Shown here: positions 3,699 through 45,265 of the stretch, in pieces
Position numbering within the stretch: position 1 is the first letter of the stretch
Layout: the number at the start of each line of letters is the position of its first letter
Sequence record: MN850601.1
Strand: one strand, 5' to 3'
DNA from: Escherichia phage inny
DNA: 64,000 bases
Translations under genes and position numbers: made by a program
Notes under the pieces: model-generated
Database searches by the model: none
What the model was told of the DNA's origin: nothing
Seen by the model: the letters and a program-made list of their open reading frames with translations, nothing else

Positions 3699-3704
3699 CA
3701 CATA

Positions 3705-3727
3705 AACCCGCTTCGGCGGGTTTTCTT
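3705..3727 (+). terminator. rho-independent terminator
   Basis: hairpin CCCGC-TTCG-GCGGG followed by TTTTCTTG. Confidence 0.7.
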
Positions 3728-4072: not shown

Positions 4073-4106
4073 AAAGCCCCTAGAATCGCTTCTAGGGGCT
4101 TTTGTT
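4073..4106 (+). terminator. rho-independent terminator closing the + strand early block
   Basis: perfect hairpin GCCCCTAGAA-TCGC-TTCTAGGGGC followed by TTTTGTTTG. Confidence 0.7.
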
Positions 4107-4470: not shown

Positions 4471-5283
4471 TTACTTAGTCAAATGATCTTCTATCATTTT
4501 TATGAAAGCAGGATTGCTAAAAGCATCTGCTGCCTTTTCTCTGTAAACAAAGACTCCTCTATCTTCGTAAAGAAGAGTTTCTTCGTAATTAATTCCTGGG
4601 TTAACAACAATCATTTTTGTACCCATATTAAGTGCAGGGAATAATTCCCAATTAAAATTGATAACTTGGTTTGAACATCCTACTACAACAACCAAATCTT
4701 GCATGGTCAAAGTATCAAACAAGTGAGCCATATCTGCATACAAAGGTGCAGCCTCACCAAAAAATACAACATTAGGCTTCACCCAGTTATAATCATCTAT
4801 GTTTATACTATTGTAACCAATATCTACCAGTGTTTTGTAATCTCCAGGATGCATACGGTAAACTACTTCAGGAAGATACCCGTGCACGTGAATAACAGAA
4901 TCCCTGTCCACACCTGCTCGCTCTAGTAGATCATCAACGTTTGTTGTCAAGTTTACTACTTGGTTAGGATATTCCTTAAACCACTTTGCTATTTGAATAT
5001 GTGCAGCATTAGGTTGTACATCTTTAAGCTCAACACGTCTTTTGTTATAAAATTCGTGTGTTTTGGCATACAAGTCCATACCGTTCTCGTCTACACCACC
5101 GACCACTGGAAGATCTGGAGATGTTCTCACACGATAACCTGCTTGGAAAGCTCCAATATCGCAGACCTCTTCTAAGTCATATTCTTCCCATAAGGCACGA
5201 CCACTATCTGTGTCTGTTCGGAACGTTCGAATCCCACTGTCTGCACTTAAACCTGCGCCACTAACAAAAATTACTCTTCGCAT
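4471..5283 (-). CDS. Sir2-family NAD-dependent protein (deacylase/ADP-ribosyltransferase-like)
   Basis: GAGLSADSGIRTFR (Sir2 GAGxS...GIPxFR), TTNVDDLLERAG (TQNxD), HVHG catalytic His, VVFFGE; only two Cys so no zinc ribbon. Confidence 0.75.
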   Translation of the reverse strand: MRRVIFVSGAGLSADSGIRTFRTDTDSGRALWEEYDLEEVCDIGAFQAGYRVRTSPDLPVVGGVDENGMDLYAKTHEFYNKRRVELKDVQPNAAHIQIAKWFKEYPNQVVNLTTNVDDLLERAGVDRDSVIHVHGYLPEVVYRMHPGDYKTLVDIGYNSINIDDYNWVKPNVVFFGEAAPLYADMAHLFDTLTMQDLVVVVGCSNQVINFNWELFPALNMGTKMIVVNPGINYEETLLYEDRGVFVYREKAADAFSNPAFIKMIEDHLTK

Positions 5284-8071: not shown

Positions 8072-8093
8072 ACAAAAAACCCGCCGAAGCGGG
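8072..8093 (-). terminator. rho-independent terminator
   Basis: hairpin CCCGC-TTCG-GCGGG followed by TTTTTT on - strand. Confidence 0.7.
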
Positions 8094-8099
8094 TTTATA

Positions 8100-10847: not shown

Positions 10848-11420
10848 TTAATGTGTTAATGAAACTGCGTAGCTAAACACAGGTTCAGATATTACATCGG
10901 CTACAGTAATAAAAACGTCTTCGTCTTGAGTTGTTTCTACACGACATACAGTTACACCATTCACCACGAATTCAACGCAATGTGGAATATCTTCACAAAC
11001 GAAGGTAGTGTAAGTAACACCCAAAGCATCATACAAAGATTTAACAGTGTTTGCAAGTGCCGCAGTTTCTTCTTTTTCTGAGACAATGAATGCTGTAACA
11101 ACAAGATTGTTTGCATAGTTTAGACTGTCCTCTATAGCCAATGATTTACAAGGTAGTAATGCAAAATATTTACCTGGTTTAATCAGACCTGCTTCCCATT
11201 GATTCAAAATTGCCTGGGATGGTTTAGTAATATAAAACAGATTTTCACTTGGGTTATCAATATTACTTCTGGCGATACAACGTGAAGGATTATTAATATC
11301 AAATACATGATCAAAATCTACACAAACAGGTAAACTGAAAGGTGTGAATTTTTTACCTAATAATCCTATGGCTGATAATATGTTTGCTGTGCTTATCTTC
11401 CCGTTAAAAGCTAAACGCAT
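10848..11420 (-). CDS. hypothetical protein (190 aa)
   Basis: ORF track. Confidence 0.45.
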   Translation of the reverse strand: MRLAFNGKISTANILSAIGLLGKKFTPFSLPVCVDFDHVFDINNPSRCIARSNIDNPSENLFYITKPSQAILNQWEAGLIKPGKYFALLPCKSLAIEDSLNYANNLVVTAFIVSEKEETAALANTVKSLYDALGVTYTTFVCEDIPHCVEFVVNGVTVCRVETTQDEDVFITVADVISEPVFSYAVSLTH

Positions 11421-11431
11421 ATTTAACTCCT

Positions 11432-11635
11432 TTAACTAGCAACCGTAACTTCCGAACTTTCTTCTTTCGTACTGTCTACGATATGCCTGGTGGCAATATA
11501 CGAGACTTGCCAGTTACCATCTGGTGTAGTCTCAATAAGTACCCTATCTACTTCGAGAAAATGCAAAAATTCAACCATCGCTCGCTTCGATAGGAATTGT
11601 TTTTTAACAGTCTCCTCAAAAGATTGAACTGCCAT
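11432..11635 (-). CDS. hypothetical protein (67 aa)
   Basis: ORF track. Confidence 0.4.
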   Translation of the reverse strand: MAVQSFEETVKKQFLSKRAMVEFLHFLEVDRVLIETTPDGNWQVSYIATRHIVDSTKEESSEVTVAS

Positions 11636-11644
11636 GTTTCCTCC

Positions 11645-12307
11645 TTATTTAATATTCAATTTTGCACAAAGACGTTGTACCGCTTTGGCATCGAACAAAC
11701 TCCCACGAATAGTTCTCTTTCCTGATTCATTCAGATGTTTTGCAATCGTCATATATGGCGTTTTACAAGCTCTGTATGCAACTAAAGAATCTTTTAAAGA
11801 AAGCGCAAACTCTTTTGAGCGTTTTGCTTCTTCCGTTTTCGTATAATCTGTTCTTTTGTATTTAGGGTTTGCTGCACCAAGAAGCGTTCCCTTCGCTTTT
11901 GCTACTTTAAGGCTCTTCTTAACACGATCAGATATTGCACGAGCCTCTTCTTCTGCCAGAACTGCTAAAATATTTATTATCATATTTTCAGCGGAGGGCA
12001 TAGTTGCTATTCGTACATTAATCATCTCTAACAAGGTTGCAACAGAAGCTGTGTTACGTCCAAGACGGTCAACCTTAGCAACAACAAGTGTAGCACCTGT
12101 TTCTTTGCAAAGATTAACAGCTTTTACAAGCTCTCTACGTTGCTTCCAATCGCCTTTACCCGAATAAAACTCTGCAAAGCTACCTACAATAGTATAATTT
12201 TCTTGTGAATCCAGGAAGCGTTGGATATCTGCTTCCTGTGATTCTATACCATACTGGTTGCCTTGTTGTTTCTTCTTAGAAAGTCGATGATACAGTACAA
12301 ACTTCAT
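11645..12307 (-). CDS. serine recombinase (resolvase/invertase family)
   Basis: N-terminal catalytic Ser in YHRLSKKKQ, ATLVVAKVDRLGRN resolvase motif, C-terminal HTH-like region. Confidence 0.7.
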   Translation of the reverse strand: MKFVLYHRLSKKKQQGNQYGIESQEADIQRFLDSQENYTIVGSFAEFYSGKGDWKQRRELVKAVNLCKETGATLVVAKVDRLGRNTASVATLLEMINVRIATMPSAENMIINILAVLAEEEARAISDRVKKSLKVAKAKGTLLGAANPKYKRTDYTKTEEAKRSKEFALSLKDSLVAYRACKTPYMTIAKHLNESGKRTIRGSLFDAKAVQRLCAKLNIK

Positions 12308-12364
12308 AATACCCTCCTGTTCTGTTACAGGAAGTATGCACTACCTTAACGTTAAAGTCAACAG

Positions 12365-22452: not shown

Positions 22453-24714
22453 TTACATCTTACAAGCCTCACAACCGGATTCTTCATCCTCTTGAGCGAG
22501 TGAGGTTGCTGATTTTGTTCGACTATTTAGATAGTACAAAGATTTACCACCAAGTTTTGCAAACTGAAGGATATATTGCATTTCTGATTTAATGGATAAA
22601 CGACCACCTTCCATCTTAGAATAGTCAATCCACTTGTCACATGATGCACCTTGATCTAAGAATTTAGTCAATAGTCCATATGCTTCAGCCATATCTTTAT
22701 CTGGCGTATCCCAAGCCGATTGGTAAATATCTTTTAGTTTATCGTAATCTGGCACAATAAACAAGACATTACCTTTTTGGCTTTGTTTATAAACTATAGT
22801 ATCACGTACAGGATACACAGAGTTAGTCGTATTACTTACAAGACTACTAGACTCATTCGGAGCAATAGCTGCTAATACACTATTTCGGATACCACCTTGT
22901 GCAATTATATCTTGTCGTAAACCTTCCCAATCCATTTTAAGTTTAAAATTGCCAATATCGTCTACAGCTTTAGCGTAGGTATCAATAGGCAACCATCCTT
23001 CAGGCCATTTGGTTTTATGCATCCATTCTGCATTACCTTTCTCTTTTGCCAAACGAAGAGAAGCTCTTGCTAACCAGTAATAATGTCTTTCTGCTAATTC
23101 GTGAATTAGTTTTTTGCCGTAAGGATCTGAATAAGTAACAAAATTACTTGCCAGATAATGTGCCAGGTTTGTAATACCCACACCGATAGACCTACGTGCT
23201 TTAGCAGTGATTTCGTTATGTTTAAACGGATACTGCATTGTTTCAATAACATTATCAATAGTTAGAACGGTATAATATGCAACATCTTCATATTCTTCTG
23301 GTGTAACGCGACCAGCTACAATAGAAGACAGGAAGCATAATGCCAATTCTTGATCTTCTGTATTCTCACCTGTGAAAAGATCAGTCATACTGTGAAATGC
23401 TTTCGTAGGTAAGAAAATTTCTTGGCACAAGTTTGACTGATAAATAACATCCTTAAACGGAGTATGCTTATTAGCATTATCCGCAAAGAACATATAAATA
23501 CGTCCTGTCTCTGCTCTTTGTGTAATAATTTCTGCCAGAAGATCTCGTGCTTTTACAAACTTCTTCTTAATTCGTTTGCGACTAACTTTTTCATATACTT
23601 CTTCAAACTCTTCCTCGCTTTTATAAAGCGCCTCATAGAGTTCTGGTGCTTCGTCATAACTGACTAGCATCCAATCTTTACCTTTTGCTGCACGGCGCAG
23701 GAAAGCATTGTTTACTACAATAGAGTAATCAAGTTTATCTACTCGTTTTTCACTAACAGTAGTTGGGTTTTTCAAACGTACCAGATCTTCAAAATCAGGT
23801 TCTAATATTGTAAACGTTACTGTTGCACTTCCACCACGACTTGCTTGTTTTGATGCTCCAACACTTGTTTCCATCCATTTCAGATATGGTAAAAGACCAC
23901 CGTGAACGATACGGTTGTTCTTAACACCTTGTCCTGTAGCACGGGTTTGGAGGTTAACACCAATACCTGCATTATTCAATGTATACTCATGAGCAAGATA
24001 GTTAGCAATTGCTAAAGATTCTGCTGTATCGTCTGCTCTAAACAGACAACAAGAAGCACTACCTTTAATCTTAGTACGCAAAGTTGTTAAATAAGGTGAT
24101 GGTAAATTAATCTTAAGATCACTTACGTAGGTATATAGACGTTTAATGTCTTCTACTCTGCGATCTTTTGGTTGGATTTCCATTACCTTCATTGCTACAC
24201 CAATGAATAAAAATTGTGGTGATTCAAAAACCACATCATTGATCGCATCTTTCACAAGATACTTATCAACCATCTGGCGCAGTACGGAATAACCATAAGT
24301 TAGGTTTTTATCATGATTGATAATTTTACCAATCTCAATAATTTCTTCTTCTGTATAATCCATTTTCCCCCAATAGCCTTTACTTACAGACATATTGTAG
24401 AAATCCAGGAGGGAGGGGATATTGTGATATCCCCCATGAGCCTGTTTATAGATCATACCAAGAAGTAACCGACCTGCCATATCACTATATGCCTGATCTT
24501 TCTTATCAATACATGCTGCTATCATAGCTTTATGTAAATCACGAGTAGGCACACCGTCGTAACAACGTTTAACAGCTTCGAGTTCAATTTCAGACCAATT
24601 TAATTTACCAGCAGCAAACTCTGACCATTTACGAAGTTTTTCTGGATTAAATTCTTCTTTCTTGCCGTTTGTTTTTGTTACATAACGGATAGATTTGCTT
24701 AGATACTGAGTCAC
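22453..24714 (-). CDS. nrdA: ribonucleotide reductase class Ia alpha subunit
   Basis: 753 aa; conserved blocks NxCxE-like SNLCQEI, C-terminal CEACKM redox cysteines, GGIRNS as in NrdA. Confidence 0.9.
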   Translation of the reverse strand: MTQYLSKSIRYVTKTNGKKEEFNPEKLRKWSEFAAGKLNWSEIELEAVKRCYDGVPTRDLHKAMIAACIDKKDQAYSDMAGRLLLGMIYKQAHGGYHNIPSLLDFYNMSVSKGYWGKMDYTEEEIIEIGKIINHDKNLTYGYSVLRQMVDKYLVKDAINDVVFESPQFLFIGVAMKVMEIQPKDRRVEDIKRLYTYVSDLKINLPSPYLTTLRTKIKGSASCCLFRADDTAESLAIANYLAHEYTLNNAGIGVNLQTRATGQGVKNNRIVHGGLLPYLKWMETSVGASKQASRGGSATVTFTILEPDFEDLVRLKNPTTVSEKRVDKLDYSIVVNNAFLRRAAKGKDWMLVSYDEAPELYEALYKSEEEFEEVYEKVSRKRIKKKFVKARDLLAEIITQRAETGRIYMFFADNANKHTPFKDVIYQSNLCQEIFLPTKAFHSMTDLFTGENTEDQELALCFLSSIVAGRVTPEEYEDVAYYTVLTIDNVIETMQYPFKHNEITAKARRSIGVGITNLAHYLASNFVTYSDPYGKKLIHELAERHYYWLARASLRLAKEKGNAEWMHKTKWPEGWLPIDTYAKAVDDIGNFKLKMDWEGLRQDIIAQGGIRNSVLAAIAPNESSSLVSNTTNSVYPVRDTIVYKQSQKGNVLFIVPDYDKLKDIYQSAWDTPDKDMAEAYGLLTKFLDQGASCDKWIDYSKMEGGRLSIKSEMQYILQFAKLGGKSLYYLNSRTKSATSLAQEDEESGCEACKM

Positions 24715-24725
24715 TTCCTCTCCTA

Positions 24726-24986
24726 TTAATTGTGCATGTTTAGAACATCTACATCATAACCGCCACGCATCTCATTATATAAGCCATTTGCGTATAGAAA
24801 ACCTTCAAAATGATCTATACCTTCAAAACCTTTTGCCTTTGCTTTGCGGTCTGCTTCTTGTCTTTTTGGGGATAATCTTTTAGATGTATCAAGAATAACT
24901 GTTACATTGCAACCTAATGTTTCATCAAAATAGACTTCAATTTCACAGCCTTCATATTTATTACTTTCTGTCATTTGGCCTCTCAA
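24726..24986 (-). CDS. hypothetical protein (86 aa)
   Basis: ORF track. Confidence 0.4.
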   Translation of the reverse strand: MRGQMTESNKYEGCEIEVYFDETLGCNVTVILDTSKRLSPKRQEADRKAKAKGFEGIDHFEGFLYANGLYNEMRGGYDVDVLNMHN

Positions 24987-25397
24987 TTAGAATTCAGAAT
25001 CATCATCTCGTGATGGATCATGTTCATTTCCGAAGTCTTCCATTTTGATATGAGAGCTACCCCAACCTGTAAAATCTTCTTCTCCAAAGTGCAAAATATC
25101 TACACCTTGATAGATTCGCTTATATTTATAGTCTTGTCGAACTGGGAAAGTATACAATGTAGTATTTGCAAACACCACACGTCGATTGTTGTTACTACGA
25201 ATATTAACACCACGTTCTACTGTATAATGTCCATCGGTAGACATACCAAGCATTACTAATGCTGCTCGCAATGTAGTGTTATGATACTCGTGAGGAATTT
25301 TTCCTCCGTGTTTTTTAGCCATTTCTTTCCAGATCGGTGTAGCCTTAATGGTAGACATACTTACGGTCGCCCAAATGGTTGTATTAATTAGTGACAT
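24987..25397 (-). CDS. hypothetical protein (136 aa)
   Basis: ORF track. Confidence 0.45.
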   Translation of the reverse strand: MSLINTTIWATVSMSTIKATPIWKEMAKKHGGKIPHEYHNTTLRAALVMLGMSTDGHYTVERGVNIRSNNNRRVVFANTTLYTFPVRQDYKYKRIYQGVDILHFGEEDFTGWGSSHIKMEDFGNEHDPSRDDDSEF

Positions 25398-25494
25398 AAA
25401 TTCTCCTTCTCTCTTTTAAGGAGAGCATAGCTCTCCTAACGTTAGCCTATACTACACGAATCTCAATTAAAAGTCAACTATAATTTTAAGTTGA

Positions 25495-43445: not shown

Positions 43446-43521
43446 GGTTCCATAGCTCACTGACGAGAGCGCACACCTCATAAGTGTCGAGGGCAGGGAT
43501 TGTAACCCTGGGGAACCACCA
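43446..43521 (+). tRNA. tRNA-like gene, anticodon CAT (Met or Ile2), non-canonical T-loop ATTGTAA
   Basis: Hand fold: acceptor GGTTCC/GGAACC, D-arm GCTC...GAGC, anticodon loop CTCATAA, T-stem CAGGG/CCCTG, encoded ACCA end. Confidence 0.45.
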
Positions 43522-43552
43522 TTTAAAAGGAGGTGCTATGCATCTCCTATAT

Positions 43553-43638
43553 GCAAGTGTGGTGGAATTGGTGATACACATTGTGCTTAAAACGCAACGC
43601 TTAAATGATTGAGGGTTCGAATCCCTCCACTTGCACCA
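43553..43638 (+). tRNA. tRNA-Leu (anticodon TAA), type II
   Basis: Hand fold: acceptor GCAAGTG/CACTTGC, anticodon loop CTTAAAA, long variable arm, T-arm GAGGG-TTCGAAT-CCCTC, encoded CCA. Confidence 0.75.
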
Positions 43639-43640
43639 AC

Positions 43641-43746
43641 GCCTAGTAGGGTATTTGGTAATTCCGAGGCCATCAAAGCCTGAAAAATATGTTAGACCGT
43701 TTTGTCTAACTAAATACGAAATATGGTTCGATTCCATAACTAGGCT
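43641..43746 (+). tRNA. atypical long tRNA-like gene (106 nt); possible anticodon TCA (opal-reading) - uncertain
   Basis: Perfect acceptor GCCTAGT/ACTAGGC and T-arm TATGG-TTCGATT-CCATA; candidate anticodon loop CATCAAA; 7-bp hairpin in extended variable region; no encoded CCA. Confidence 0.3.
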
Positions 43747-43781
43747 CCCGATTTAAATAGTAATTTTTTAATAAAAATATC

Positions 43782-43810
43782 TTGACATTTACTTAGTTTT
43801 TTGTTATAGT
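43782..43810 (+). promoter_or_regulatory. sigma70-like promoter (TTGACA-N17-TATAGT)
   Basis: Near-consensus; transcript would start right at tRNA-like gene at 43822. Confidence 0.55.
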
Positions 43811-43821
43811 CATTATGAAAA

Positions 43822-43903
43822 CGGGGTGTATCTCACCTGACTTCTAATCAGGCGTTAACCGAGTAATTGGAGTATGCAGGTTCGAATCCTGTCACCCCGG
43901 CCA
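43822..43903 (+). tRNA. tRNA-Arg-like (anticodon TCT) with non-canonical architecture (no D-arm, 23-nt insert before T-arm)
   Basis: Perfect acceptor CGGGGTG/CACCCCG, anticodon arm CCTGA-CTTCTAA-TCAGG, T-arm GCAGG-TTCGAAT-CCTGT, encoded CCA; only 7 nt between acceptor and anticodon stem. Confidence 0.4.
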
Positions 43904-43920
43904 AAAAGTTTTAAAAACTA

Positions 43921-43949
43921 CTTGACAAGCAAGATAGTTTTATGTTAGA
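43921..43949 (+). promoter_or_regulatory. sigma70-like promoter (TTGACA-N17-TTAGAT)
   Basis: Consensus -35; upstream of tRNA-Ser. Confidence 0.45.
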
Positions 43950-43965
43950 TTTAAAGTATGGTAAC

Positions 43966-44055
43966 AGGAAGGTAGGGCGCAGCGGTGCGCAACCAGGTTT
44001 GAACCCTGGCCCATTGTAGCGATACGGTGATGGTTCGACTCCATTATCTTCCTCC
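43966..44055 (+). tRNA. tRNA-Ser (anticodon TGA), type II
   Basis: Hand fold: acceptor GGAAGGT/ATCTTCC, anticodon arm CCAGG-TTTGAAC-CCTGG, long variable arm, T-loop TTCGACT, encoded CCA. Confidence 0.65.
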
Positions 44056-44236
44056 AAATTCGCTTAGGAGCTTTATGAATTATAAAACTATTGGACAGAT
44101 TGTTACCGGAGTTAAGATTGTAAATAATAAAGTTGTTTATGAGTATTCTAATCTTCAACAATCTGAAGATGGTAAGAATATTCGTATGGTAAAAGCAGAA
44201 CAAAAAGATTCCGGTTGTTTTGAATAATTAAGAACG

Positions 44237-44321
44237 GTAGATTGGTGAAATGGTAGCCACAACAGTTTGCTAAACTGTCGTCGGAAACGGCGTGTAGGTT
44301 CAAGTCCTACATCTACCGCCA
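44237..44321 (+). tRNA. tRNA-Ser (anticodon GCT), type II
   Basis: Hand fold: acceptor GGTAGAT/ATCTACC, anticodon arm ACAGT-TTGCTAA-ACTGT, variable hairpin CGTCG-GAAA-CGGCG, T-arm GTAGG-TTCAAGT-CCTAC, CCA. Confidence 0.7.
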
Positions 44322-44491
44322 AGTTATCTTTAATGTAGCTTGTTGCTCTTAGTTGCTTGGTGTAACTTTTTGGAAGGATGGCTGCAACCATCTTACTTTA
44401 ATAGAGTAAACTTTCGGCAGATGGCCCCCACCATCTTACCGATACCTCATAGTTAGTGGTGCGAACACTGGCTATTTTAAAGATAATTTAT
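44322..44491 (+). other. unassigned structured spacer inside tRNA array (two GATGG-loop-CCATCTTAC hairpins)
   Basis: Repeated motif CCATCTTAC and hairpins resembling the 3' end of adjacent tRNA-Ser; no complete cloverleaf found by hand. Confidence 0.3.
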
Positions 44492-44567
44492 ACATCGTTA
44501 GCTTAGTTGGTAGAGCAAGGGGCTTTTAACTCCAAGGTCGAAGGTTCGAATCCTTCACGATGTACCA
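44492..44567 (+). tRNA. tRNA-Lys (anticodon TTT)
   Basis: Hand fold: acceptor ACATCGT/ACGATGT, D-arm GCTT-AGTTGGTA-GAGC, anticodon loop CTTTTAA, T-arm GAAGG-TTCGAAT-CCTTC, CCA. Confidence 0.7.
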
Positions 44568-44572
44568 AACAC

Positions 44573-44659
44573 GTAGGTATCGCATAGCGGCAATTGCTGG
44601 AGACTGTAAATCTCCTGCCCTTCGGGGCTTCGTTGGTTCGAGTCCAACTACCTGCACCA
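44573..44659 (+). tRNA. tRNA-Tyr (anticodon GTA), type II
   Basis: Hand fold: acceptor GTAGGTA/TACCTGC, anticodon arm GGAGA-CTGTAAA-TCTCC, variable hairpin, T-arm GTTGG-TTCGAGT-CCAAC, CCA. Confidence 0.7.
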
Positions 44660-44666
44660 AATTAAA

Positions 44667-44751
44667 GATGGATTGGCCTAGTGGTTGGGCGACGGACTGT
44701 TAATCCGTGAACGAAAGTTCTAGCAAGGTTCAAATCCTTGATCCATCGCCA
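44667..44751 (+). tRNA. tRNA with Asn-type anticodon arm (GTT) but long 15-nt variable arm
   Basis: Hand fold: acceptor GATGGAT/ATCCATC, anticodon arm ACGGA-CTGTTAA-TCCGT, variable hairpin GAAC-GAAA-GTTC, T-arm CAAGG-TTCAAAT-CCTTG, CCA. Confidence 0.6.
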
Positions 44752-44830
44752 AATAGTGCTTGTAGAGTTAATAGAAACCTCTAGAATTTTCTAGAATTGT
44801 AGGTATCAAATCCTACCAAGCAAATATTTT

Positions 44831-44905
44831 GCTCCTATCGTATAACGGCTATTACGGTTGCCTTGTAAGCAACTTATCAGGGTTCGAGTCCTTGTGGGAG
44901 CACCA
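44831..44905 (+). tRNA. tRNA-Thr (anticodon TGT)
   Basis: Hand fold: acceptor GCTCCTA/TGGGAGC, anticodon arm GTTGC-CTTGTAA-GCAAC, T-arm CAGGG-TTCGAGT-CCTTG, CCA. Confidence 0.7.
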
Positions 44906-44927
44906 ATTTAACTCTAAAGGAGTGTAT

Positions 44928-45251
44928 GTGACAGAAAAAGAGTTAGAGAAATATTTTAATATCAATGTTTTCGATGGTTTTGATGATATTGAAGATGTTG
45001 AAAGATATTATGAAGTAGAGTTAGATAAGGATAACATTGTAATTCTTTCTGCCACTTATGATTGTGCATATTATGAAGGCGAATCTCACGTTTATTTCTA
45101 TGATATGAAAACATCTTTGTTTTATGAAGTACACGCATATCATTGTTCTTGTTATGGCTTAGAAGGTCAGTGGGAACCTGAAGAAATAGGTGATTTGAGC
45201 TTTACGGTTGCATATCTAAACAGACGTGGTGCATCTACTATTTTAAAATAA
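44928..45251 (+). CDS. hypothetical protein embedded in tRNA array (about 107 aa)
   Basis: ORF track 44829-45251 trimmed to GTG after AAGGAG RBS to avoid overlap with tRNA-Thr; Cys/His/Tyr-rich. Confidence 0.45.
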   Translation: MTEKELEKYFNINVFDGFDDIEDVERYYEVELDKDNIVILSATYDCAYYEGESHVYFYDMKTSLFYEVHAYHCSCYGLEGQWEPEEIGDLSFTVAYLNRRGASTILK

Positions 45252-45265
45252 ATATTAAAAGCCTC

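What the first reader, a model, noticed from the sequence alone, without database searches (positions are those of the whole stretch)
11645..12307. Serine recombinase in an otherwise lytic-looking genome
A resolvase/invertase-family protein (catalytic Ser context YHRLSKKK, VAKVDRLGRN) sits among early/metabolic genes without an obvious repressor, attachment site or inverted-repeat-bounded segment in view. It could drive an invertible switch, resolve replication multimers, or be a remnant of a mobile element.
Basis: partly seen in the sequence, partly recalled or inferred. Interest (0 to 1): 0.4.

Follow-up and report, generated by a model that had tools for sequence, protein, structure and literature searches.

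The report
Orphan serine recombinase in phi92-like phage
The ORF is a real, intact small serine recombinase, already annotated as Phi92_gp053 in phage phi92 and about 55 near-identical lytic coliphages; it is strongly conserved and has its own early promoter, but the genome holds no invertible segment, attachment site or second recombination site, so the usual 'DNA invertase' label is unsupported and its target is still unknown.

Summary
Observation confirmed. Window 11645-12307 (minus strand) encodes a 220-aa Resolvase-domain protein with all catalytic residues (Y6, R8, S10, D80, R81, R84, E121, R128). It is 100% identical to Phi92_gp053, so the window is a Justusliebigvirus (phi92-like virulent myovirus).

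The gene is under strong purifying selection (dN/dS about 0.1 or lower). It is present in all 55 Justusliebigvirus records and in Phapecoctavirus, Klebsiella, Vibrio and Shewanella phages.

Its C-terminal DNA-binding domain is a truncated 'Recombinase'-type helix bundle, as in large serine recombinases. It is not the Hin/Gin HTH.

All 13 family loci examined have their own sigma-70-type promoter. In most, a leader hairpin hides the ribosome site in read-through RNA.

The invertase idea is not supported. Two complete genomes have no inverted-repeat-bounded segment. The single inversion polymorphism in the genus lies outside the window, lacks repeats at its ends, and behaves as an old allele.

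The promoter-plus-gene cassette occupies different loci in the two sister genera. The nearest non-phage relatives sit on tiny Rep/ParA plasmids.

Best guess: a resolvase-type enzyme made immediately after infection that acts on one site per phage genome copy. The target is unproven. Known at annotation level; modest interest.

The parts
11645..12307 (-). Small serine recombinase CDS (220 aa; identical to Phi92_gp053). Catalytic domain is residues 1-140 (S10 nucleophile), then a flexible linker at about 141-154, then a four-helix C-terminal DNA-binding domain at 155-216.
   Evidence: ORF. Pfam PF00239 E = 8e-22. 100% identity to phi92 gp053. AlphaFold2 model pLDDT 87. Foldseek best match is the large serine recombinase Bxb1, spanning the catalytic domain and the start of the recombinase domain. 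PF07508 matches in 19 of 27 family members. dN/dS about 0.03-0.11.
12333..12361 (-). Sigma-70-type promoter dedicated to the recombinase gene: -35 TTGACT (12361-12356), 17-nt spacer, -10 CATACT (12338-12333).
   Evidence: Consensus scan (a weak 9/12 match on its own). An equivalent TTGAC(A/T)-N16-18 -10 element precedes the gene in all 13 family loci examined, down to 35% protein identity.
12306..12344 (-). Leader stem-loop that pairs the -10/transcription-start region with the Shine-Dalgarno sequence (AGGAGG, 12318-12313). It would form only in read-through RNA coming from upstream genes.
   Evidence: RNAfold gives -21.8 kcal/mol, z = -3.7, with 0 of 200 shuffles as stable. P(SD paired) is 1.0 in read-through RNA and 0.03 in RNA started at the gene's own promoter. 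Non-homologous hairpins at the same place occur in other family members. The regulatory role is inferred, not shown.
12308..12364 (-). 57-nt intergenic gap between gp054 and the recombinase. Together with the CDS it forms a roughly 730-bp cassette that is absent from the syntenic site in Phapecoctavirus.
   Evidence: In Phapecoctavirus 536P1 the gp054 and gp052 homologues are separated by only 45 nt, which hold a terminator-like hairpin. The recombinase lies about 15 kb away on the other strand.
11432..11635 (-). gp052 homologue (67 aa, unknown function). It starts 9 nt after the recombinase stop and is co-transcribed, but is not functionally tied to the recombinase.
   Evidence: ORF. phi92 annotation. 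In Phapecoctavirus the gp052 homologue stays at the old site without the recombinase.

Best explanation
Window 11645-12307(-) encodes a catalytically competent small serine recombinase. It belongs to a clade so far seen only in large virulent phages.

Shown:
- Domain layout: a resolvase-type catalytic domain (S10 nucleophile) and long E-helix, followed by a short helix-turn-helix bundle homologous to the first part of the 'Recombinase' domain of large serine recombinases.
- No zinc-ribbon or coiled-coil domain, and no Hin/Gin-type HTH.
- It is the first gene of an early operon, with its own host-RNA-polymerase (sigma-70-type) promoter.

Inferred (regulation): a leader hairpin lets it be translated only from transcripts that start at that promoter, that is, immediately after infection.

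Inferred (reaction): like other small serine recombinases, it binds a dyad-symmetric site as a dimer, synapses two sites as a tetramer, makes staggered double-strand cuts through 5'-phosphoserine links, and exchanges strands by subunit rotation.

Inferred (role): because the phage genome has no pair of sites, the most likely reaction is resolvase-type recombination between single sites carried on separate or tandem copies of the phage genome. This could mean circularising or resolving genome multimers early in infection, analogous to plasmid multimer resolvases and to Cre/lox in P1.

It is not a DNA invertase of a phage segment and not a lysogeny integrase. My confidence is about 0.95 in the identity, about 0.85 in 'not an invertase or integrase here', and about 0.3 in the resolvase-on-phage-DNA role.
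For: - Identity and activity: Pfam and PHROG matches. Catalytic residues align with Tn3 and gamma-delta resolvase and are conserved in 27 homologues. Confident model with the canonical fold.
- Selection: synonymous sites are saturated (pS 0.6-0.8) while pN is 0.04-0.25, so dN/dS is about 0.03-0.11. The gene is present in all 55 Justusliebigvirus records and in about 100 further phage records.
- C-terminal domain type: PF07508 in 19 of 27 members and no HTH_7. Foldseek top hit is Bxb1 over 257 columns. There are weak full-length NCBIfam similarities to CcrB, Mpi and YneB.
- Own promoter in 13 of 13 loci. Leader hairpins with z = -3.5 to -4.9 in 6 of 9 loci, hiding the SD or the -10.
- No paired sites: no inverted repeats beyond terminator hairpins in two complete genomes, in the window, or near homologues in other phages.
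- Resolvase-type relatives: the nearest non-phage full-length homologues (35-36% identity) lie on 6-7 kb plasmids next to Rep and ParA genes, which is the classic setting of multimer resolvases.
- A Justusliebigvirus is reported to have fixed ends with 342-bp direct terminal repeats (PMC12210895; mapped). Two copies of any site inside that repeat would therefore be present on each incoming genome.
Against: - No recombination site has been identified. The dyad sequences around the promoter are not conserved even between 78%-identical orthologues, so they are probably RNA or terminator hairpins rather than binding sites.
- Phages with short terminal repeats (T7, N4) manage without any site-specific recombinase, so no need for one is established.
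- The gene sits at different loci in sister genera, which also fits a moron-like accessory gene with some other role.
- One Phapecoctavirus record (Schickermooser) carries several frameshifts in the gene. If these are real, the gene is dispensable.
- The function of the plasmid relatives is inferred from context only.
Confidence: 0.4

Rival explanations
1. DNA invertase (Hin/Gin/Cin/Mpi-like) that flips a phage segment, for example a tail-fibre or promoter switch.
For: Database labels say 'DNA invertase'. There is weak full-length similarity to the Mpi master-invertase model. One 876-bp segment (genes B and C plus the 5' end of D, at OZ035770.1 74599-75474, outside the window) occurs in both orientations among Justusliebigvirus genomes, and it is the only inversion found in whole-genome comparisons.
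Against: There is no inverted repeat of 13 nt or more at the ends of that segment in either orientation. Inverted copies differ by about 7%, against 1-3% among genomes of the same orientation, and the junction sequences have diverged, so it is an old haplotype rather than a switch. No other IR-bounded segment exists genome-wide in two genera. All 55 genomes are collinear over window 1-50000. No HTH_7 domain is present. The Mpi model scores 33 bits against a cut-off of 272.
Confidence: 0.05
2. Host- or mobile-element-directed recombinase. Under this reading it is an immediate-early weapon that rearranges a site in the bacterial chromosome, a prophage, a satellite or a phase-variable defence locus.
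For: It is expressed from a host-RNAP promoter among host-takeover-type early genes. No target is found in the phage genome. Translation appears restricted to the earliest transcripts.
Against: Orthologues occur in phages of E. coli, Klebsiella, Vibrio and Shewanella, so a shared host site would have to be very conserved or to co-evolve. There is no match to any PADLOC defence-system model. No candidate site is known, and nothing in the literature searched supports it.
Confidence: 0.15
3. Selfish or moron-like cassette: a free-standing promoter-plus-gene module shuffled between intergenic sites of phage genomes, with little or no benefit to the phage. The first reader's 'remnant of a mobile element' is a variant of this.
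For: There is a precise single-gene indel between gp054 and gp052 relative to Phapecoctavirus, where the gene lies in the other early arm and on the other strand. It has its own promoter nested in a stem-loop, resembling the promoter-early stem-loop cassettes that mediate modular shuffling in T4-type phages (PMC2839356, PMC4122927). There is a possible pseudogene in Schickermooser.
Against: The gene is fixed in all 55 Justusliebigvirus records and nearly all Phapecoctavirus records rather than patchy. It is under strong purifying selection including the DNA-binding domain. Only one relocation is seen between two genera. No flanking repeats or att-like ends are present. It is not a decayed remnant.
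Confidence: 0.15
4. Domesticated DNA-binding protein (for example a repressor of early promoters) that no longer recombines DNA.
For: Tn3-family resolvases double as repressors (established knowledge). The gene sits behind a promoter that overlaps dyad sequences.
Against: Every catalytic residue is conserved across homologues down to 31% identity, which a pure binder would not need. The dyads are not conserved between close orthologues.
Confidence: 0.05
5. Integrase of a hidden temperate life cycle.
For: PHROG 95 'integrase' is the second-best PHROG hit.
Against: The protein is 220 aa with no zinc-ribbon or coiled-coil domain. No close relative was found in 185,579 bacterial and archaeal species genomes by motif scan, so there are no prophage copies. 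No repressor or att site is present. The phages are described as strictly lytic (PMC10269720, PMC12210895).
Confidence: 0.02

Closest known systems
Tn3 / gamma-delta resolvase and plasmid multimer resolvases (small serine recombinases, PF00239)
   Same: Same catalytic domain, same catalytic residues, same size class. Best sequence matches among solved structures are Tn3 resolvase at E = 6e-17 and Sin at 1e-16 with the family profile. The nearest cellular homologues sit on Rep/ParA mini-plasmids. Only one site per replicon is needed.
   Different: The C-terminal domain is not HTH_7 but a truncated 'Recombinase' (PF07508-like) bundle. There is no transposase partner. Only 57 nt lie upstream, too short for a three-subsite res. 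No site has been identified.
Hin / Gin / Cin / Pin DNA invertases
   Same: Small serine recombinases encoded by phages (Mu Gin, P1 Cin). The public annotation of this gene uses their name.
   Different: There is no adjacent invertible segment, no inverted repeats and no HTH_7 domain. Matches to Gin structures cover only the catalytic domain.
Large serine recombinases (Bxb1, phiC31, CcrB)
   Same: The best structural match is Bxb1, over the catalytic domain plus the first helices of the recombinase domain. There is weak CcrB similarity over residues 4-212, and PF07508 hits in the family.
   Different: The protein is less than half their length. It lacks the rest of the recombinase domain, the zinc-ribbon domain and the coiled coil that give att-site discrimination and directionality.
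Bacteroides Mpi master invertase and Bacillus YneB resolvase-like proteins
   Same: About 200-aa serine recombinases that align end to end with this protein (NCBIfam). Mpi acts in trans on distant sites (from my own knowledge, not checked here).
   Different: Scores are far below the family cut-offs (33 against 272 bits; 30 against 175 bits). No IR-flanked promoter segments are present in the phage.
P1 Cre/lox (functional analogy only)
   Same: A phage-encoded site-specific recombinase proposed to circularise incoming terminally repeated DNA and resolve multimers, with one site per genome.
   Different: Cre is a tyrosine recombinase and P1 is temperate. The role proposed here is untested.
PeSL (promoter-early stem-loop) cassettes of T4-type phages
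   Same: An early sigma-70 promoter combined with a stem-loop at the 5' boundary of a variable, relocatable early gene (PMC2839356, PMC4122927).
   Different: The hairpin sequences here are not a repeated conserved motif shared between cassettes. In several family members the hairpin covers the ribosome site rather than acting as a terminator.

Membership tests
Serine recombinase superfamily (Resolvase N-terminal domain, PF00239) | Catalytic domain matching the family model above its curated threshold | tested here: met
   78.3 bits against a cut-off of 23.3, residues 4-141. All 27 homologues match.
Serine recombinase superfamily (Resolvase N-terminal domain, PF00239) | Nucleophilic Ser about 10 residues from the N-terminus, with the conserved Arg/Asp set (R8, D67, R68, R71 in gamma-delta numbering) | tested here: met
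   Y6, R8, S10, D80, R81 and R84 align to Tn3 resolvase and are invariant or nearly invariant.
Serine recombinase superfamily (Resolvase N-terminal domain, PF00239) | Recombination activity on a defined pair of sites | not testable with these tools
   No site was identified; this needs biochemistry or genetics.
Hin/Gin-type DNA invertases | C-terminal HTH_7 (Hin-type) DNA-binding domain | tested here: not met
   No HTH_7 hit in any of 27 members. PF07508 hits in 19 of 27 instead.
Hin/Gin-type DNA invertases | Invertible segment bounded by inverted repeats, next to the gene or elsewhere in the genome | tested here: not met
   No such repeats in the window or in complete genomes of two genera. 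55 genomes are collinear over window 1-50000. The only inversion polymorphism lacks terminal repeats.
Hin/Gin-type DNA invertases | Fis-bound recombinational enhancer | not tested
   It cannot be recognised reliably from sequence.
Tn3-family resolvases | Multi-subsite res upstream of the gene, with a neighbouring transposase | tested here: not met
   The upstream gap is 57 nt and is occupied by a promoter and leader hairpin. No transposase is present among the neighbours.
Large serine recombinases / integrases | Full recombinase domain plus zinc-ribbon domain with coiled coil; typically more than 400 aa | tested here: not met
   The protein is 220 aa. Only four helices follow the E-helix. The Foldseek alignment to Bxb1 covers only its N-terminal half (TM normalised by target length is 0.23).
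Mpi family master DNA invertases (NF009949) | Score above the curated equivalog cut-off | tested here: not met
   33.5 bits against a cut-off of 272.
IS607-type serine transposases | N-terminal MerR-like HTH preceding the catalytic domain | tested here: not met
   The catalytic domain starts at residue 1 and the DNA-binding domain is C-terminal.
PeSL-like regulatory cassette | Early sigma-70 promoter combined with a stable stem-loop at the gene's 5' boundary | tested here: met
   Promoter in 13 of 13 loci. A significantly stable hairpin spans the -10 in 6 of 9 loci.
PeSL-like regulatory cassette | The same conserved motif repeated at many cassette boundaries, so that homologous exchange can occur | tested here: not met
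   The window's promoter dyads have no further copies. The hairpin sequences differ between orthologues.

The most novel reading that the evidence does not exclude
The recombinase acts in trans on the arrays of directly repeated, dyad-symmetric hairpin motifs (CACATAGGGCGG-loop-CCGC) that punctuate the hyperplastic early region of both Stephanstirmvirinae genera, and on similar pseudo-sites. It would excise and reinsert small gene cassettes, including its own promoter-gene cassette. This would make it an integron-like cassette shuffler in an obligately virulent phage. The evidence does not exclude this: both features co-occur in both genera, cassette order around the motifs differs between genera, and the recombinase cassette itself has moved precisely. 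No direct link was found.
Probability: 0.04. Interest if true: 0.85.

Novelty: already known. Interest (0 to 1): 0.27.

Why it matters
Phi92-like and phAPEC8-like phages are repeatedly proposed for therapy. Automated screens treat any recombinase, integrase or invertase as a lysogeny or safety flag. This gene hits PHROG 'integrase' and is labelled 'DNA invertase' in RefSeq. Showing that it is neither an integrase nor a demonstrable invertase removes a false alarm.

The biology is also open. A site-specific recombinase that is fixed, strongly selected and tightly restricted to the first minutes of infection in strictly virulent phages has no assigned role. Finding its site would show whether such phages circularise or resolve their DNA site-specifically, or instead target host DNA. 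It would also yield a compact (220 aa) serine recombinase with an integrase-type DNA-binding module, which could be useful as a tool.

Tried and rejected
- Inverted and direct repeats in the window and around the gene: only terminator hairpins and chance-level matches.
- Extra copies of the two dyads in the gene's promoter region: none beyond chance. These dyads are not conserved in phi92, alia or FKP3.
- Whole-genome self-comparison of a Justusliebigvirus (OZ035770.1) and a Phapecoctavirus (OZ035728.1) for inverted repeats. A 12-mer IR scan at 40-4000 nt spacing found 58 and 64 pairs, against 47 and 45 in shuffles. The best conserved pair closes a structured element whose interior is not inverted between genera.
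- The B-C-D1 inversion polymorphism as a candidate substrate: rejected as a programmed switch, because it has no terminal repeats, diverged junctions, and orientation-linked sequence divergence.
- Conserved operon partner or accessory factor: the downstream small genes are not homologous across phages, and gp052 stays behind in Phapecoctavirus.
- Relatives in bacterial genomes: the first alignment was too diverse for the tool. The second scan found no relative in 185,579 species genomes; it was limited to two peptide motifs, so only close relatives are excluded.
- Repeated sites near homologues in Vibrio, Shewanella and Phapecoctavirus loci: none.
- PADLOC defence models: no hit.
- Literature searches for a tested function: nothing. 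One paper even states that no recombinase genes were predicted in ESCO5, a phage that carries a homologue.
- Rfam on the structured element near the genome end: no family.

Full report
**1. The observation**

The ORF is at window 11645..12307 on the minus strand. It has an ATG start, encodes 220 aa, and is preceded by AGGAGG. It matches Pfam Resolvase (PF00239) over residues 4-141 at E = 8.4e-22 and PHROG 125 'DNA invertase' at E = 1e-31. Its closest solved relatives are Sin, Tn3 resolvase, gamma-delta resolvase and Gin.

A profile alignment puts R8/S10 and D80-R81-x-x-R84 on the catalytic R8/S10 and D67-R68-x-x-R71 of Tn3 resolvase. Y6, R8, S10, Q24, E46, G50, R57, D80, R81, R84, E121 and R128 are invariant or nearly invariant in 27 homologues, down to 31% identity.

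**2. What genome this is**

A 3-kb stretch around the gene is 95-100% identical to 55 phage records of the genus Justusliebigvirus (phi92-like, Stephanstirmvirinae). The protein is 100% identical to Phi92_gp053. That gene is annotated 'putative recombinase, resolvase family protein / DNA invertase' in the phi92 record. The window corresponds to about phi92 7.8-71.8 kb.

The gene lies in a long same-strand array of early and nucleotide-metabolism genes. These include PhoH, an HslV-like peptidase, two methyltransferases, a Ser/Thr phosphatase, a DprA-like protein, Sir2, dTDP-rhamnose genes and ribonucleotide reductase. So the existence and family assignment of the gene are already public.

I found no paper that tests its function. 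One study states that no recombinase genes were predicted in ESCO5, although ESCO5 carries a 57%-identical homologue.

**3. Is it a live gene?**

Yes. All 55 Justusliebigvirus records carry it at 99% protein identity or more. Homologues elsewhere:

| Phage group | Protein identity |
|---|---|
| Phapecoctavirus (phAPEC8-like) | about 57% |
| Klebsiella Stephanstirmvirinae | 44-78% |
| Vibrio and Shewanella phages (130-140 kb) | 35-49% |

Metagenomic relatives sit on 130-157 kb contigs.

Codon-level comparison of nine sequences shows saturated synonymous sites (pS 0.61-0.82) with pN of only 0.04-0.25. Where estimable, dN/dS is 0.03-0.11. It is therefore not a decaying remnant. One Phapecoctavirus record (Schickermooser) has several single-base frameshifts in the 5' half. 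I cannot tell a pseudogene from sequencing error there.

**4. Which kind of serine recombinase?**

At 220 aa it is a small one. An AlphaFold2 model (pLDDT 87) shows the following:
- the canonical catalytic fold and a long E-helix (108-138);
- a disordered linker (about 141-154);
- a four-helix C-terminal bundle.

The C-terminal bundle is not the Hin/Gin/resolvase HTH_7. Across the family, 19 of 27 members hit Pfam 'Recombinase' (PF07508, best E = 3e-7), the domain that follows the catalytic domain in large serine recombinases. The best Foldseek match in the PDB is the large serine recombinase Bxb1, aligned over 257 columns.

NCBIfam gives only sub-threshold, end-to-end similarities, to CcrB, the Mpi master invertase and YneB. 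The zinc-ribbon and coiled-coil modules that define integrases are absent. A motif scan of 185,579 bacterial and archaeal species genomes found no close relative, so there are no prophage copies. No PADLOC defence model matches.

**5. Test of the invertible-switch idea**

- *Repeats in the window.* It has no inverted repeats beyond terminator hairpins and chance-level matches.
- *Collinearity.* Megablast of window 1-25000 and 25001-50000 shows all 55 Justusliebigvirus records collinear. A second 'place' appears only where a linear record's end cuts the match.
- *Whole genomes.* I assembled complete genomes of a Justusliebigvirus (OZ035770.1) and a Phapecoctavirus (OZ035728.1). Self-comparison shows only terminator hairpins as inverted repeats. 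A 12-mer scan for repeats 40-4000 nt apart is only modestly above shuffles, at 58 and 64 pairs against 47 and 45.
- *Inversions between genomes.* Comparisons of three complete Justusliebigvirus genomes and the window reveal one inversion polymorphism. It is an 876-bp segment at OZ035770.1 74599-75474, about 25 kb outside the window. It carries two small genes, a divergent promoter region and the 5' end of a third gene.

Both orientations of that segment occur in the genus:

| Orientation | Genomes |
|---|---|
| As in OZ035770.1 | alia, UAB_1, PaulScherrer, A150 |
| Inverted | PHB05, W22, EC_OE_11, EmilieFrey, ECGD1, PD211, and Phapecoctavirus |

This was the one serious candidate substrate, but three results argue against it:
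- Neither orientation has inverted repeats at the junctions; the best local alignment is 12 nt and lies away from the breakpoints.
- The junction sequences have diverged; one orientation fuses two ORFs that are separate genes in the other.
- Inverted copies are about 7% diverged, whereas same-orientation genomes differ by 1-3%.

This is what an old inversion haplotype looks like. It is not what a flip-flop switch looks like.

**6. The gene is a relocatable cassette**

Between the two sister genera the flanks are collinear, but the recombinase is not.
- *Justusliebigvirus:* promoter plus ORF (about 730 bp) lies between gp054 and gp052.
- *Phapecoctavirus 536P1:* the gp054 and gp052 homologues are separated by 45 nt that hold a terminator-like hairpin. 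The recombinase (57% identical) lies about 15 kb away, on the other strand, in the opposite early arm, among unrelated small genes. Only one of those neighbours has a homologue in Justusliebigvirus.

No duplicated or att-like ends are visible. Klebsiella phages FKP3 and 05F01 have the phi92-type location.

**7. Expression signals**

All 13 family loci examined have a TTGAC(A/T)-N16-18 -10 element directly upstream of the gene, in a 50-70-nt gap within otherwise tightly packed arrays. These range from the window to Vibrio and Shewanella phages. In the window it is TTGACT-17-CATACT at 12361-12333.

The next gene starts within about 10 nt of the stop codon in the four loci where this was checked. 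The recombinase therefore heads an early, host-polymerase-dependent operon.

The leader folds far better than shuffled controls in 6 of 9 loci, at z = -3.5 to -4.9. The hairpin sequences are unrelated between lineages. They always span the -10/start region, and in the window, L021, 05F01 and VPMCC14 they pair with the Shine-Dalgarno sequence. In the window, P(SD paired) is 1.0 in read-through RNA and 0.03 in RNA begun at the gene's own promoter.

I infer, without proof, that only transcripts initiated at its own promoter are translated. That would confine the enzyme to the first minutes of infection. The arrangement resembles the promoter-early stem-loop cassettes that bound mobile early genes in T4-type phages (PMC2839356, PMC4122927). 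Because the dyads differ even between 78%-identical orthologues, they are unlikely to be the recombinase's binding sites.

**8. What it most likely does**

- *Reaction chemistry.* It can be stated with confidence from family membership: dimer binding to a dyad site, tetramer synapsis, S10-linked double-strand cleavage, subunit rotation and religation.
- *Substrate.* It cannot be named. With no site pair in the genome, the simplest reaction is between single sites on different or tandem genome copies, which is resolution or cyclisation.

Two observations lean towards resolution or cyclisation:
- The nearest non-phage, full-length homologues (35-36% identity) lie on 6-7 kb plasmids beside Rep and ParA genes, the usual company of multimer resolvases.
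- A Justusliebigvirus is reported to package fixed-end genomes with 342-bp direct terminal repeats (PMC12210895). That repeat maps to phi92 coordinate about 1, outside the window. A site inside it would be present twice on each incoming molecule, and early-only expression would then make sense.

I put this role at about 0.3. Other readings:

| Reading | Probability |
|---|---|
| Host- or mobile-element-directed recombination | about 0.15 |
| Largely selfish or moron-like cassette | about 0.15 |
| Invertase | about 0.05 |
| Non-catalytic regulator | about 0.05 |
| Integrase | about 0.02 |

The rest is unassigned.

**9. Verdict**

- *What it is not.* The 'DNA invertase' label is not supported by any feature of the genome. 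The gene is neither an integrase nor a remnant.
- *What it is.* An uncharacterised, virulent-phage-specific clade of small serine recombinases with an integrase-type DNA-binding stub. It is strongly selected, carries its own promoter, and is relocatable.
- *Interest.* Modest. It is a genuine open question with a clear experimental path, but not a surprise to specialists.

Noticed in passing
Outside the window: OZ035770.1 74599-75474 (L006 about 24600-25475); also L011-L016: An 876-bp segment is found in both orientations among near-identical Justusliebigvirus genomes and in Phapecoctavirus. It carries two small genes, a divergent promoter region and the 5' end of a third gene. One orientation fuses two ORFs (D1+D2, about 184-220 aa) that are separate genes on opposite strands in the other. 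It has no terminal inverted repeats, and it is the only inversion found genome-wide.
   Followed up: yes
Outside the window: OZ035770.1 about 81.2-91.2 kb; OZ035728.1 about 83.5-92.8 kb: Arrays of directly oriented intergenic hairpins are conserved in both genera. Each is preceded by a conserved CAC(A/G)TAGGGCGG motif, for example GGCGGGAAATGGTTTCCCGCC in at least 5 copies and TAGGGCGGCAATAGTGCCGCTC in at least 3. Gene order around them differs between genera. They could be phage-specific promoter, processing or shuffling signals.
   Followed up: partly
Outside the window: OZ035770.1 91819-91965; OZ035728.1 93369-93496: A structured non-coding element of about 150 nt is closed by a perfect 15-bp long-range stem (GCTAATAATAA...). 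Its internal hairpins show compensatory changes between genera, and it is followed by iteron-like AATAATATAAGCTATCC repeats. It lies about 400 bp from the reported 342-bp terminal repeat. It has no Rfam match.
   Followed up: partly
window 43446-46196: A cluster of 15 tRNA genes, all on the plus strand: Met x2, Leu x2, Ser x2, Lys, Tyr, Asn, Thr, Gly, Gln, Pro, Phe, Ile.
   Followed up: partly
window 5221-5249: A sequence resembling a tRNA T-arm/acceptor end (GAACGTTCGAATCCCACTGTCTGCACTTA) groups with the tRNA cluster repeats but is not called as a tRNA by ARAGORN. It may be a tRNA fragment or a tRNA-like element in the early region.
   Followed up: no
window 3702-3724 and 8076-8098; 4073-4102: Two identical 23-nt terminator hairpins (AAACCCGCTTCGGCGGGTTT) lie in opposite orientation 4.35 kb apart. 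A bidirectional 13-bp-stem terminator marks the convergent junction of the two early arms. Copies of the same hairpin families recur around the genome.
   Followed up: partly
Public records MG065639.1, MG065645.1, MG065656.1, MG065689.1: Records named 'Campylobacter phage' with host Campylobacter jejuni are 98% identical to this coliphage genus and are classified as Justusliebigvirus. The host label is probably wrong, or the phages were contaminants.
   Followed up: no
L017 (NC_048196.1 11216-11955): The recombinase homologue of phage Schickermooser has several single-base indels in its 5' half, including near the S10 codon. It is annotated only as a 128-aa C-terminal fragment. This is either a pseudogene or sequencing error.
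   Followed up: partly
window 10848-11420: The gp051 homologue is labelled 'histidyl tRNA synthetase' in several records, although it is only 190 aa and 'hypothetical' in the original phi92 note. This looks like a propagated over-annotation.
   Followed up: no
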